A stretch of DNA of 64,000 nt from a virus. Lineage: Duplodnaviria > Caudoviricetes. The stretch lies in the IMG/VR virus record IMGVR_UViG_3300032285_003899, positions 18,127 to 82,126 of that record, one strand, 5' to 3'. Shown here piece after piece: positions 50,231 through 52,497 of this stretch. Position 1 is the first letter of the stretch. Each line of letters opens with the position of its first letter. The notes beneath the pieces were generated by a model. It ran no database searches, was not told where the DNA came from, and saw only the letters and a list, made by a program, of their open reading frames with translations. A program made the position numbers and the translations under genes.

Positions 50231-50274
50231 TTGACAAACGCTGAAAGTATGGTAGATTGATCGCGTTCTTTAAA
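50231..50274 (+). promoter_or_regulatory. promoter + boxA-like cassette, repeated at 50378, 50507 and 51842
   Basis: CCCCTTGACA-N16-TAGATT...GTTCTTTAAA. Confidence 0.7.
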
Positions 50275-50281
50275 TGATTTC

Positions 50282-50370
50282 TTGTCAGACCGTTTGAGCG
50301 TTTTAGACTTTTCCTGCTCTTTACCACATTCGAAGGAGAAAGTGATGGCAGAATGTGGGCGGTCTGGCAA
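50282..50370 (+). ncRNA. unknown structured RNA (three-way junction with a kissing loop)
   Basis: 12-bp closing stem, two hairpins with complementary loops; own promoter. Confidence 0.55.
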
Positions 50371-50424
50371 ATTCCCCTTGACAAAGTAAGAAAGTGTGAT
50401 AGATTGTCAATGTTCTTTAAATTT

Positions 50425-50497
50425 TGCGGGTTGGAGAAGAGGTCATCTCGTCACGCTCATAACGTGAAGATCATCGGTTCGAATCCGATACCCGCTA
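50425..50497 (+). tRNA. tRNA-Met(CAU), initiator-like
   Basis: 1:72 mismatch; GCGGGT/ACCCGC; TCACG-CTCATAA-CGTGA; no encoded CCA. Confidence 0.85.
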
Positions 50498-50554
50498 AGT
50501 TTCCCCTTGACAATCGAAGAAAACATGATAGATTGTCAACGTTCTTTCAATAAT

Positions 50555-50630
50555 GCATCCATAGCTCAACGGTAGTAGCATCGGCCTTTTAAGCCGAGGG
50601 TTGTGAGTTCAAGTCTCACTGGATGCACCA
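50555..50630 (+). tRNA. tRNA-Lys(UUU)
   Basis: GCATCCA/TGGATGC-A-CCA; TCGGC-CTTTTAA-GCCGA. Confidence 0.95.
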
Positions 50631-50654
50631 TTTTTTTCAGTTCTTTTAAATTTT

Positions 50655-50723
50655 AAGCAGTGGAGTCACTCACAATATAATGTGTGTTATTTTTGTGAGA
50701 TAGGAATTCGTTCCTCGCTGCTT
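50655..50723 (+). ncRNA. candidate three-way-junction RNA
   Basis: AAGCAGTG/CGCTGCTT enclosing CTCACAA/TTGTGAG and AGGAA-TTCG-TTCCT. Confidence 0.45.
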
Positions 50724-50732
50724 ATTACTTTT

Positions 50733-50807
50733 AAGTAAGATAGTAAGGTTTAATAGTTTATGTTGTTGATATTAAATCTGAAAGTAATTGGTATTACAAT
50801 CTTACTT
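50733..50807 (+). ncRNA. candidate three-way-junction RNA
   Basis: AAGTAAGAT/ATCTTACTT enclosing AGGTTTAATA/TATTAAATCT and GTAAT/ATTAC. Confidence 0.4.
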
Positions 50808-50964
50808 ACTATTTTCAAGTAAATTGCAAACTGTTTTTGCAATGTCTTGATGGGTATTGTAGCGGGATCTTTGGTCTATTGATTCTGGTAAAATTCGATC
50901 CTATTCTTGTAACTACATAAAACAAGAAGTTCTTTTTAAAAATTTAATATGTAGTAGTTTCTAT

Positions 50965-51037
50965 GGGCCGTTAGCATAATGGTTTGTGCAGCGAACTCAT
51001 AATTCGTCGGTTGCTGGTTCAAGTCCAGCACGGCCCA
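50965..51037 (+). tRNA. tRNA-Ile2(CAU)-like (lysidine type; Met not excluded)
   Basis: GGGCCGT/ACGGCCC-A; GCGAA-CTCATAA-TTCGT. Confidence 0.8.
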
Positions 51038-51061
51038 CAGAGACTATTGCATATTTTTAGT

Positions 51062-51137
51062 GGTCCCGTAGCTTAACATCAAAAGCGTTCTCTTTATAAG
51101 GGATTGACTGTGGGCGAAAATCCCACCGGGACTACCA
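51062..51137 (+). tRNA. tRNA-Ile(UAU) with atypical D and T loops
   Basis: GGTCCCG/CGGGACT-A-CCA; anticodon loop TTTATAA; T loop CGAAAAT. Confidence 0.75.
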
Positions 51138-51693
51138 AATTTTTAATTTGTTCTTTACATCTTTCTTCGAAATGCAATTCAGCATGACAGTTACGGCAAA
51201 CTAATACACATTTATCTAATTCTGGTTTAATAATTTCAAATGAGCAATTTTTTTTGCGAGAAATAGCAAAGTCTTTTTTAGACGGATCTAAATGATGAAA
51301 ATCAAGTGCGCCGGGATATTTATTATATCCACACTTGACACATTTACCACCTTTATAATTGATAGCTTCTATTTTTCTTTGTTGCTGCCATTCAATAGTT
51401 CGTTTATTAGCGCATGACTTACACCATACATAAGTGTGCTTATCATTTTTAGTATAAAAACCAGTCACTAAATTTTTAGTTTCTTTGCAACGTGAACATA
51501 CTTTGTATTCAATACCATCTTTAATAATCTTTTCTTTTGCGGCATAACCTTGAGAAAAAGATTTATTAGTAGTTTTTAAATTGAATTTCTTAAGCCAGTG
51601 CCTAACATTAGTTTGACTTTTGTTTGTTGATTTTGCGATTTGATGAGTGGAAAGTCCTTGACTGATCAAGCTCTCTAGTGTAGATTTATCCAT
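51094..51693 (-). mobile_element. HTH + Zn-finger + HNH homing endonuclease
   Basis: N-terminal HTH; CSRC, CKSC, CVKC...LDFHH...CVLVCRNCHAELH. Confidence 0.85.
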
Positions 51694-51755
51694 AGTTCAA
51701 TTCTTATTACACTTTATTATAAGATTTGAACTAGTTCTTTCAATAAAATTTTAGC

Positions 51756-51830
51756 GGTCCATTGGTCTAGTGGTTATGACGCTGCCCTTTCACGGCGGAG
51801 ACGAGAATTCGATTTTCTCATGGACTACCA
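51756..51830 (+). tRNA. tRNA-Glu(UUC)
   Basis: GGTCCAT/ATGGACT-A-CCA; CTGCC-CTTTCAC-GGCGG. Confidence 0.93.
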
Positions 51831-51887
51831 AGTTTTTCCCCTTGACGGGGAGCATGATCTATAGTAGATTGTGCGTGTTCTTTAAAT

Positions 51888-52167
51888 CCCTATATAGCCC
51901 AACGGCAGAGGCAGCGAACTTTAGCGTAAATTGAGTGCTTGAAGAGAAATCTTCAAAGTAGAAATCGTCAAATTCGGGGAAACCTTTAAAATGGCAATCC
52001 CGAGCCAAGCTCAGAAATGAGAAGGTGTAGAGACTTAACGGCGATCATCTAAAACAGAAATGTCATGATGAAGAGAAAGTCCAGACCACAAATCAGTAAT
52101 GAGCAACGAAAGTTGTAGTGGTACGAAAATTCGTCAAGTGTCAGTTCGAATCTGACTATAGGGACCA
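51888..52167 (+). tRNA. tRNA-Leu(UAA), interrupted (exons 51888-51921 and 52126-52167), short variable loop
   Basis: CCCTATA/TATAGGG-A-CCA; anticodon T^AA rebuilt on splicing. Confidence 0.9.
51922..52125 (+). mobile_element. group I intron of the trnL(UAA) type, no ORF
   Basis: AAATTCGGGGAAAC (P), AATCCCGAGC (Q), GTAGAGACT (R), GAAAGTCCA (S); terminal G; IGS TTGAGT pairs with exon ACTT. Confidence 0.92.
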
Positions 52168-52200
52168 CTTTTTTGTTCTTTTACATTTTCTTTTCCAAGA

Positions 52201-52448
52201 CGGCCCACCCGGCTTCCAAGAGCTAACCCATGATAACAGAAGCTTGGAAAATCTGTTACGGACGGGGTTCTGAGGAAAAGTTACAGCTTAGGAGTCATGA
52301 CCTAAGCTGTATAATTTACATACAGTGCGCCCAAGCGATCTTGTTTTGAGTCGCTTTACACTGAGTCAACAATGGGCCGAGATTTTTCTCGCTAGAAGGA
52401 CAAGGGGCTTCATGCCCCGTTCTGTAAAAAGACTTACTTCTAGTGGGA
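52201..52448 (+). ncRNA. unknown ~250-nt multi-stem RNA
   Basis: CGGCCCA/TGGGCCG, TTCCAAG/CTTGGAA, CAGCTTAGG/CCTAAGCTG, CAGTG/CACTG, CTCGCTAGAAG/CTTCTAGTGGG, GGGGC/GCCCC; pseudoknot TAACAGA/TCTGTTA. Confidence 0.6.
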
Positions 52449-52497
52449 TTTAATTTGACAATACTATAATAGAGTATAAGATAGTTGTAGATTTTAC

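What the first reader, a model, noticed from the sequence alone, without database searches (positions are those of the whole stretch)
52195..52450. Unannotated ~250-nt highly structured RNA between tRNA-Leu and tRNA-Arg
Seen: no ORF, GC-richer than its flanks, preceded by a boxA-like GTTCTTTTACA like the tRNAs. It has nested helices: 52201-52207/52373-52379 closing a multi-stem domain; a loop TAACAGA able to pair with downstream TCTGTTA (pseudoknot); a 9-bp CAGCTTAGG hairpin; and a second domain closed by an 11-bp stem with G-U pairs. I could not match it to tmRNA, RNase P, SRP, 6S or known riboswitch cores. Inference: a stable phage ncRNA or ribozyme co-processed with the tRNA array. Large ncRNAs such as GOLLD and ROOL are known from phage tRNA clusters, but this one is shorter.
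Basis: partly seen in the sequence, partly recalled or inferred. Interest (0 to 1): 0.8.

Follow-up and report, generated by a model that had tools for sequence, protein, structure and literature searches.

The report
Three small folded RNAs, tRNA operon
The flagged 250 bases are three separate small folded RNAs strung behind a phage tRNA-Leu gene, not one RNA; they match no catalogued family, their job is unknown, and one has a loop that looks built to pair two copies together.

Summary
The stretch is real, non-coding, + strand RNA structure (MFE -89.4 kcal/mol, z -4.8) with no Rfam 15 match. About 45 related uncultured freshwater-phage loci show it is a composite, not one 250-nt RNA. Module A (52190-52311) is a pseudoknotted ~120-nt RNA. 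Module C (52323-52377) is an H-type pseudoknot with an inserted hairpin. Module E (52387-52448) is a three-way-junction hairpin. The modules occur in different combinations, with other cassettes (B, T, D, F) inserted between them. The window is the only locus where C is not preceded by module B.

Module A is well supported: 18 variants, 98% of cells paired, 10 of 24 pairs compensatory. The terminal loop of A switches between the palindromes TCATGA, TAATTA and TAGCTA, the signature used for symmetric kissing loops in OLE and GOLLD.

Closest analogue by position: phage T4 species 1 and 2 stable RNAs (no homology). Function unknown. This scan had already noted module C and similar modular RNAs on other DNA. 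The modules may be among unnamed published IMG/VR candidates, which I could not check.

The parts
52175..52183 (+). boxA-like motif GTTCTTTTA in the U-rich spacer after tRNA-Leu
   Evidence: 9 window matches against 3.95 expected; 5 of them lie on the + strand within 50265-52183, each before a tRNA or a structured element.
52190..52311 (+). Module A: ~120-nt pseudoknotted RNA (P0, P1, pseudoknot, P2, P3)
   Evidence: Alignment A2 of 18 distinct variants: 98.1% of cells paired, 10 of 24 pairs compensatory, slid controls 33-42%. CM R1 scores 108-143 bits in relatives. No Rfam match.
52190..52196 (+). P0 5' strand CUUUUCC, pairs with GGAAAAG at 52274-52280 (inferred). The same leader can instead pair 9 bp with the P2 loop.
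   Evidence: leader-to-J complementarity of 5-9 bp in the 20 variants listed. U-run and A-run lengths change together in L024, L069 and L022. The core is invariant, so support is weak.
52201..52206 (+). P1 5' strand, pairs with 52265-52272 (one or two bulges)
   Evidence: helix 1: 95.4% paired; 3 of 6 pairs compensatory (UA/CG, GC/CG/AU, GC/AU).
52214..52220 (+). Pseudoknot 5' strand TTCCAAG, pairs with the P2 loop CTTGGAA at 52243-52249
   Evidence: 5-7 contiguous pairs in 18 of 18 variants, one compensatory change (L022: TTCCAAA with TTTGGA), one wobble intermediate (L023).
52234..52258 (+).
   Evidence: helix 2: 97.6% paired; one compensatory pair (CG to UA).
52282..52311 (+). P3 hairpin, 11 bp, with 8-nt loop AG+TCATGA (palindrome at 52295-52300)
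   Evidence: helix 3: 100% paired, 6 of 11 pairs compensatory, many G-U pairs, so + strand; the loop hexamer is TCATGA, TAATTA or TAGCTA (changes at symmetry-related positions 2+5 and 3+4), and TCATGT in one lineage.
52312..52322 (+). A-C junction. Relatives carry modules T and/or B here; the window probably has a deletion.
   Evidence: the window is the only locus with A followed 3 nt later by C; flanks match the start of T and the end of B, with a shared 'AC'. Inference.
52323..52377 (+). Module C: H-type pseudoknot. S1 52323-27/52359-63, inserted hairpin S2 52334-40/52348-55, PK GCCCA 52329-33 with TGGGC 52373-77, A-rich 9-nt linker.
   Evidence: Alignment A3 of 21 variants: 98.3% paired. 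S2 has 2 compensatory pairs. S1 and PK are invariant apart from GC to GU in 4 variants. CM R2 scores 87-95 bits in relatives. Folded alone it has no thermodynamic signal (z 0.08).
52387..52448 (+). Module E: three-way junction. 12-bp closing stem 52387-98/52437-48, hairpin GGGGC/GCCCC 52404-18, short hairpin 52419-33. Followed by a U-rich tail.
   Evidence: Alignment A4 of 13 variants: closing stem 100% paired, 2 compensatory pairs and 4 one-sided (G-U) pairs. + strand -28.0 kcal/mol (z -4.55) against - strand -18.1. CM R3 scores 59-96 bits in relatives.
52455..52482 (+). Promoter-like site TTGACA-16-TAAGAT ahead of tRNA-Arg; marks the end of the tRNA-Leu/A/C/E unit
   Evidence: 10 of 12 matches; conserved in relatives.
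51888..52167 (+). Context: tRNA-Leu(UAA) interrupted by a group I intron, directly upstream
   Evidence: Rfam Intron_gpI at 51912-52099, 71.5 bits. Relative L001 has the intron-less gene.

Best explanation
The stretch is the non-coding tail of the tRNA-Leu transcription unit of a large uncultured freshwater phage. It consists of three separate, independently conserved RNA folds on the + strand.

Module A (about 120 nt) is a compact pseudoknotted RNA. Two stacked helices (P0, P1) enclose a hairpin (P2) whose loop pairs with an upstream strand. A terminal hairpin (P3) follows, whose loop carries a covarying 6-nt palindrome. This most likely lets two copies dock by a symmetric kissing loop.

Module C is an H-type pseudoknot that everywhere else follows another module (B). 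Module E is a three-way-junction hairpin at the 3' end of the unit.

Shown: the folds, the strand, the modularity, the absence from Rfam.

Inferred: the modules are transcribed with tRNA-Leu from the promoter at 51842-51870. They are released at the U-rich linkers by host RNases. They then persist as small stable RNAs that act in trans as folded objects, probably binding a protein or each other. They would then be neither regulators of a neighbouring gene nor a single ribozyme. E, and C where E is missing, probably also protects or defines the 3' end.

The confidence is for this structural and modular reading. The trans-acting role is a guess at about 0.35.
For: Fold and strand: z -4.77. G-U pairs in P3 and in the E stem would be C-A mismatches on the other strand.
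Covariation: A has 10 of 24 pairs compensatory, 98.1% paired against 33-42% when slid. C's S2 has 2 compensatory pairs. E's stem is 100% paired with 2 compensatory pairs.
Pseudoknot in A: complementary in 18 of 18 variants, with one compensatory change.
Modularity: the architecture table covers about 45 loci. A, T, B (one or two copies), C, D or F, and E occur in many combinations. C occurs without A in about 15 loci. E is absent in L001 and L013-L019. D also lies between tRNA-Asn and tRNA-Tyr in L021. In L073 the same slot holds a NifU_N gene instead.
No catalogued family: Rfam 15 at gathering and at E<=10 on the window, and at E<=1 on five relatives; ARAGORN finds no tmRNA.
Transcription unit: + strand promoter-like sites lie before tRNA-Leu and after E, with no + strand terminator between. 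Every module is preceded by a U-rich linker.
Palindrome switching TCATGA, TAATTA, TAGCTA at symmetry-related positions. The same argument is used for OLE L9.3 and GOLLD L21a in PMC12286853.
Module C is 92-95% identical in phages whose neighbouring RuvB-like protein is only 63% identical.
Against: No transcript, processing or stability data exist for these uncultured phages.
All variants come from one phage clade (mean column identity 76-88%), so independent events are few. C's S1 and pseudoknot never vary, and C alone has no thermodynamic signal.
The palindrome rests on four lineages: two compensatory events and one lineage (TCATGT) that breaks the outer pair. The commonest form, UAAUUA, is all A-U and would be a weak kiss.
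In the window, L064 and L067 a 7-bp long-range helix could join A and C into one domain.
In L021 the E-like element sits 3 nt before tRNA-Arg with no promoter between, so E is not always terminal.
Confidence: 0.7

Rival explanations
1. It is one ~250-nt two-domain RNA. Helix 52201-07/52373-79 closes a multi-stem domain made of A plus C, with E as a second domain of the same molecule.
For: The 7-bp helix is in the minimum-free-energy and centroid folds. L064 and L067 keep it through G-U pairs (TGGGCT). The modules are only 3-11 nt apart in the window.
Against: The helix is impossible or only 4-5 bp in every other A+C locus. 100-900 nt of other modules lie between its strands in relatives. TGGGC is conserved in about 15 loci that lack module A entirely, and it always has the internal partner GCCCA. 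The 5' strand GGCCC is needed for the covarying P1 of module A.
Confidence: 0.1
2. One or more modules are self-cleaving ribozymes that cut the tRNA operon transcript into pieces.
For: The junction sequences of A are invariant while its stems covary, as in a catalytic or ligand-binding core. The folds are pseudoknotted. The modules sit between RNAs that must be separated. A group I intron lies next door.
Against: No match to hammerhead, twister, twister-sister, pistol, hatchet, HDV-like, glmS or any other Rfam ribozyme, even at E<=10. The clade is narrow, so invariant junctions say little. Host RNase P and RNase E processing at U-rich linkers is sufficient in phage T4 (established knowledge).
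Confidence: 0.08
3. The modules, above all E and C, are cis-acting 3'-end elements. They would be complex terminators or exonuclease blocks that end and protect the tRNA-Leu transcript, with no trans function.
For: E is followed by a U-rich tail and then a promoter in most loci. Where E is absent, C is followed by AAUUUUC and the promoter. The E hairpin GGGGC/GCCCC is followed by GUUCU(U/G)U.
Against: This does not explain module A, its pseudoknot or its palindromic loop. The L021-type E lies directly before tRNA-Arg with no promoter. D, F and other cassettes often lie between C and E. The terminator scan finds no + strand terminator here.
Confidence: 0.15
4. The features act at the DNA level, or are decayed remnants of tRNAs, introns or homing-endonuclease genes, and are not functional RNA. 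DNA-level roles could be protein-binding palindromes, homing-endonuclease targets or recombination cassettes.
For: The region is a hotspot of gain and loss with HNH genes nearby. The P3 loop hexamers are DNA palindromes too. Relatives carry a tRNA-like module T in the same slot.
Against: Compensatory changes with G-U intermediates are strand-specific. The centre of the loop palindrome is offset by 1 nt from the centre of the stem's inverted repeat, so the DNA is not one coherent palindrome. Neither ARAGORN nor Rfam sees a tRNA or an intron in A, C or E. Module C is far better conserved than the flanking genes.
Confidence: 0.05

Closest known systems
Phage T4 species 1 (rnaC, 139 nt) and species 2 (rnaD, 119 nt) small stable RNAs
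   Same: Both are small structured non-tRNA RNAs lying in the tRNA gene cluster on the tRNA strand, next to tRNA-Arg, with a homing-endonuclease gene in the cluster. The fold strength is similar (z -4.07). Function is unknown in both (T4: established knowledge).
   Different: There is no sequence or structure homology: R1 best score over rnaC/rnaD is 7.4 bits, E 0.9, and R2 finds nothing in the whole T4 genome. T4 rnaC ends in a tRNA-like T-arm; modules A, C and E do not.
GOLLD and ROOL (large ornate RNAs of phages and prophages, often near tRNA islands), and OLE
   Same: Phage-borne, near tRNA genes, pseudoknotted, function unknown. Module A's loop switches between palindromes. PMC12286853 uses that same evidence for the symmetric kissing loops OLE L9.3 and GOLLD L21a.
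   Different: Module A is 5-7 times smaller (about 120 nt against about 580-800+). No Rfam match to either model. The locus is a string of separable modules, not one conserved large fold. No assembly has been shown.
HIV-1 dimerisation initiation site type kissing hairpins
   Same: A hairpin whose loop holds unpaired 5' purines followed by a 6-nt self-complementary sequence that varies between palindromes (established knowledge for HIV-1 DIS).
   Different: No relation by descent or context. Here the palindrome runs to the last loop base and the hairpin is attached to a pseudoknotted domain.
Unnamed candidate structured RNAs of IMG/VR (8,495 'DNAVirus_X' motifs, PMC10690425)
   Same: Same data source (IMG/VR intergenic regions), same size range (29-151 nt), not in Rfam. 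That catalogue also includes tRNA-like structures and terminator-like elements.
   Different: Membership could not be checked because no supplementary files are held. The modules may already be listed there without description.

Membership tests
Any Rfam 15 family (including GOLLD, ROOL, tmRNA, RNase P, SRP, 6S, riboswitches, self-cleaving ribozymes) | Covariance-model score at or above the family's gathering threshold | tested here: not met
   nothing in 52168-52497 on the + strand even at E<=10. The only overlapping hit is a 12.5-bit lncRNA match on the - strand (E 8.8); none of the modules matches in five relatives at E<=1.
tmRNA | tRNA-like domain plus tag reading frame (standard or permuted) | tested here: not met
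   ARAGORN finds no tmRNA in the window or in the relatives.
T4 species 1 / species 2 stable RNAs | Position: non-tRNA structured RNA inside the phage tRNA cluster, on the same strand | tested here: met
T4 species 1 / species 2 stable RNAs | Homology of sequence and structure to rnaC or rnaD | tested here: not met
   R1: 7.4 bits, E 0.9 over rnaC/rnaD. R2: no hit in T4. R3: no hit in L070.
T4 species 1 / species 2 stable RNAs | Co-transcription with tRNAs, excision by host RNases, accumulation as stable RNA | not testable with these tools
   Only promoter and terminator predictions and U-rich linkers are available.
Symmetric kissing-loop homodimer RNAs (as OLE L9.3, GOLLD L21a) | A hairpin-loop palindrome that covaries between different palindromes | tested here: met
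   TCATGA, TAATTA and TAGCTA in 13 of the 20 variants tabulated (12 of 18, L068 and L069), with changes at positions 2+5 and 3+4. TCATGT in 6 of those 20 keeps only the CATG core; L072 (read by eye) also shows TCATGT.
Symmetric kissing-loop homodimer RNAs (as OLE L9.3, GOLLD L21a) | Physical dimer or oligomer | not testable with these tools
   Needs native gel, SEC-MALS or cryo-EM.
H-type pseudoknot (module C) | Two crossing helices, short loop 1, longer A-rich loop 3 | tested here: inconclusive
   The geometry fits: loop 1 is 1 nt, loop 3 is 9 nt and A-rich, both 5-bp stems are paired in 21 of 21 variants. But both stems are invariant apart from GC to GU in 4 variants, and there is no thermodynamic signal.
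Intrinsic terminator (module E) | G+C-rich stem directly followed by a U tract | tested here: inconclusive
   The closing stem is followed by AUUUAAUUU or AUUUUACUUUC. But the stem is branched and not called by the scan, and in L021 it abuts tRNA-Arg.
Self-cleaving ribozyme | Site-specific self-scission | not testable with these tools
   No known class matches. Cleavage needs a bench assay.

The most novel reading that the evidence does not exclude
Module A is a new class of small (~120 nt) self-associating phage RNA: a pseudoknotted core with a symmetric kissing loop that forms an RNA-only homodimer or larger assembly. It would be a miniature counterpart of the OLE, ROOL and GOLLD complexes, and is expressed from a tRNA operon. 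The duplicated UUCCAAG strand (52193-99 and 52214-20) could additionally let the P2 loop switch partners, within one molecule or between molecules.
Probability: 0.3. Interest if true: 0.7.

Novelty: new member of a known kind. Interest (0 to 1): 0.5.

Why it matters
Phage tRNA clusters have been known since T4 to carry stable RNAs that nobody has explained. GOLLD and ROOL show that such RNAs can be elaborate self-assembling objects. This locus adds three uncatalogued families to that class and shows that they behave as exchangeable cassettes: closely related phages differ in which modules they carry. Module A is small enough for direct biochemistry and structure work. It carries the same evolutionary signature of intermolecular pairing as the giant RNAs, so it could be a tractable model for what these RNAs do. 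The finding also gives a caution: minimum-free-energy folds of such regions invent long-range closing helices that comparative data do not support.

Tried and rejected
1. Rfam at gathering and permissive thresholds, on the window and on five relatives: only tRNAs and the group I intron matched.
2. GenBank phages by blastn and megablast: no match. The RuvB-like neighbour has only <=30% identical relatives there.
3. No whole genome is held for the window.
4. The exact 16- and 17-mer scans of IMG/VR also returned chance hits (L002-L009, L011, L015, L017), which failed blastn and the CMs. L045, L054 and L058 from the metagenome scan are chance matches too.
5. CMs R1, R2 and R3 found nothing in more distant relatives (RuvB-like 35-59% identical: L039-L044, L078-L086), T4 or T5.
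6. The single-sequence fold of module A gives an alternative pairing (AGAGC/GUUCU) that relatives do not conserve. I rejected it in favour of the comparative P1.
7. Pairing of the P3 loop with the internal CAUGA (52230-34): rejected, because that strand is invariant while the loop changes.
8. Coding potential: rejected by frame-breaking indels.
10. The supplements of PMC10690425 are not held, so overlap with that catalogue is unknown.

Full report
CONTEXT. The window comes from a large uncultured phage. It encodes a UvsX-like recombinase, a DnaB-like helicase, a DNA polymerase, RIIA and RIIB, a RuvB-like ATPase and HNH endonucleases. It has 12 tRNA genes. Its relatives come from IMG/VR and metagenome contigs; I take them to be freshwater samples from the sample ids and from earlier scan notes, which no tool output states. 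No whole genome is held, and GenBank phages show no DNA similarity. The flagged stretch lies between tRNA-Leu(UAA) and a promoter-like site at 52455-52482 that precedes tRNA-Arg, tRNA-Asn and tRNA-Tyr. The tRNA-Leu gene is interrupted by a group I intron (Rfam 71.5 bits).

- The + strand of 52195-52450 folds at -89.4 kcal/mol, against -67.2 +/- 4.7 for shuffles (z -4.77). The - strand is weaker (z -3.49).
- GC is 40-44% against 26-37% in the coding flanks.
- Only 39-51-aa ORFs overlap the stretch. Homologues differ by 1-4-nt indels inside them.
- The boxA-like GTTCTTTTA is at 52175-83. Five of the nine window copies cluster on the + strand in the 2-kb tRNA region.
- Rfam 15 gives nothing here, even at E<=10. 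ARAGORN finds no tmRNA.

IT IS A COMPOSITE. Exact-word and gapped-pattern scans, plus loci anchored on the neighbouring RuvB-like gene, gave about 45 true related loci. Mapping the pieces by blastn gives this general order:
tRNA-Leu, [A], [T or other], B (one or two copies), C, [D, F or other], [E], promoter, tRNA-Arg.
- A is present in about half of the loci, always just after tRNA-Leu.
- C is present in all loci that reach the region, including about 15 that lack A.
- E is present in a subset, 6 to more than 500 nt after C.
- D also occurs between tRNA-Asn and tRNA-Tyr in L021.
- In L073 the whole slot holds a NifU_N gene instead.
- The window is the only locus in which C is not preceded by B. 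Its A-C junction (52312-52322) matches the start of module T and the end of module B in L010 and L064, with a shared 'AC'. I read this as a deletion (inference).
- None of the modules in the relatives matches Rfam.

MODULE A (52190-52311). Eighteen distinct variants (alignment A2, mean identity 83%) support three nested helices:
- P1: 52201-06 with 52265-72.
- P2: 52234-40 with 52252-58.
- P3: 52282-92 with 52301-11.
Overall, 98.1% of cells are paired and 10 of 24 pairs show compensatory changes. Sliding the partners drops pairing to 33-42% and compensatory pairs to 0-3. Frequent G-U pairs in P3 fix the strand as +.

The P2 loop (CTTGGAA, 52243-49) is complementary to TTCCAAG (52214-20) over 5-7 contiguous pairs in all 18 variants. 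There is one compensatory change (L022) and one wobble intermediate (L023). This is the real pseudoknot.

A conserved leader, UUUUCCAA, lies just 5' of P1 in every variant. It can pair with the conserved GAGGAAA junction to form P0 (52190-96 with 52274-80, 5-9 bp). The lengths of the U-run and the A-run change together in three variants. In the window type the same leader could instead pair 9 bp with the P2 loop. I leave this alternative unexplained.

The single-sequence fold of A picks a different pairing for the P1 region, which relatives do not conserve.

THE P3 LOOP. The 8-nt loop is AG followed by a hexamer. Among the 20 variants tabulated there:
- TCATGA in 5 distinct variants, including the window.
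- TAATTA in 7.
- TAGCTA in 1.
- TCATGT in 6; L072, read by eye, shows TCATGT as well.
The first three hexamers are perfect palindromes. They differ at symmetry-related positions (2+5; 3+4). Adjacent bases in one loop cannot pair with each other, so such switching indicates pairing between two copies. Kretsch et al. make the same argument for OLE L9.3 and GOLLD L21a (PMC12286853). The centre of the palindrome is offset by 1 nt from the centre of the stem's inverted repeat, which argues against a simple DNA palindrome.

Cautions: there are only four lineages; one of them breaks the outer pair; and UAAUUA would be a weak kiss. I put dimerisation at about 0.4.

MODULE C (52323-52377). Twenty-one variants (alignment A3) fit an H-type pseudoknot:
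- S1: CAGTG/CACTG.
- Loop 1: 1 nt.
- Pseudoknot: GCCCA/TGGGC.
- Inserted hairpin S2.
- Loop 3: 9 nt, A-rich.
Pairing is 98.3%, but only S2 covaries (2 pairs). S1 and the pseudoknot never vary, apart from GC to GU in 4 variants. Folded alone, C has no thermodynamic signal. So the fold is plausible but not proven.

C is 92-95% identical in phages whose RuvB-like protein is only 63% identical. That points to very strong constraint or to cassette exchange.

It is 7 bp in the window and, with G-U pairs, in L064 and L067. It is not possible elsewhere.

MODULE E (52387-52448). Thirteen variants (alignment A4) share a 12-bp closing stem that is always paired. It has 2 compensatory pairs and 4 one-sided (G-U) pairs. 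The + strand gives -28.0 kcal/mol (z -4.55), the - strand -18.1. The diverged form in L014 and L021 keeps the stem and hairpin 1 (AGAGGC/GCCTCT) by hand alignment. E is usually followed by a U-rich tail and a promoter, but in L021 it abuts tRNA-Arg.

DISTRIBUTION. CMs R1, R2 and R3 find the modules only in the clade whose RuvB-like protein is 63-98% identical, and in two MAG contigs labelled Gammaproteobacteria and Flavobacterium (L068, L069). They find nothing in more distant relatives, T4 or T5.

MECHANISM.
Shown: three conserved + strand folds in the tRNA-Leu transcription unit.
Inferred: co-transcription, release at U-rich linkers, and persistence as small stable RNAs that act as folded objects. 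E, and C where E is missing, may also define or protect the 3' end.
The nearest precedent by position is T4 rnaC and rnaD, which lie beside tRNA-Arg with SegB in the cluster. There is no homology to them.
The rivals are a single RNA, a ribozyme, a pure 3'-end element, and a DNA-level feature or remnant. Each is weighed in its own section of this report.

NOVELTY. The kind of thing is known: unexplained structured RNAs in phage tRNA islands. These three families are not in Rfam. They may be among the unnamed IMG/VR candidates of PMC10690425, which I could not check.

This scan has met the same phenomenon before on other DNA. Module C's pseudoknot was noted in another genome (e1-6002370). Follow-ups e1-5740901 and e1-5679189 reached the same 'modular RNAs, T4-like slot' reading. 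Module A was not found among earlier notes.

Noticed in passing
window 51888-52167; L001:1156-1231: tRNA-Leu(UAA) carries a group I intron in the window (Rfam 71.5 bits, 51912-52099). The near-identical relative L001/L023 has the intron-less gene, so this is a presence/absence polymorphism. ARAGORN misses the interrupted gene.
   Followed up: partly
L073:11647-12042: In a relative whose RuvB-like protein is 68% identical, the tRNA-Leu to tRNA-Arg slot holds a 131-aa NifU_N (IscU-like) gene (E 5.8e-47) instead of RNA modules. The slot is a cargo hotspot.
   Followed up: partly
L010:10245-10325 (also L001, L023, L055-57, L064): Module T is an 81-nt tRNA-shaped element. It has a 10-bp closing stem and a GGGTTCAAGTCCCC T-arm, lies between A and B, and is called neither by ARAGORN nor by Rfam.
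   Followed up: no
L012:431-780 and L021:~910-1260: Module B (TTTGCAGCAATGAGGG...GATCTGCAAA) occurs as two diverged tandem copies, in short (~93 nt) and long (~192 nt) forms. Several of its helices covary by eye. It always precedes module C, except in the window.
   Followed up: partly
window 52193-52199 and 52214-52220: The strand UUCCAAG occurs twice, just outside and inside P1 of module A. Both copies are complementary to the P2 loop, and the outer copy reaches 9 bp in the window. This could be an alternative conformer or an intermolecular contact.
   Followed up: partly
window 51062-51134: Rfam calls a tRNA here (50.4 bits) that ARAGORN does not. It overlaps the 3' end of the minus-strand ORF 51094-51693.
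   Followed up: no
window 52229-52232, 52296-52299, 52411-52414: The self-complementary tetramer CATG sits in the conserved junction of module A, in its P3 loop, and in the hairpin-1 loop of module E. This may be chance or may mark docking points.
   Followed up: no
L068 (CAUYTX010000466.1), L069 (NZ_JBMOGV010000185.1): Contigs binned as a Gammaproteobacteria MAG and a Flavobacterium MAG carry the A-B-C-E cassette. They are probably mis-binned phage contigs and at best a weak host hint.
   Followed up: no
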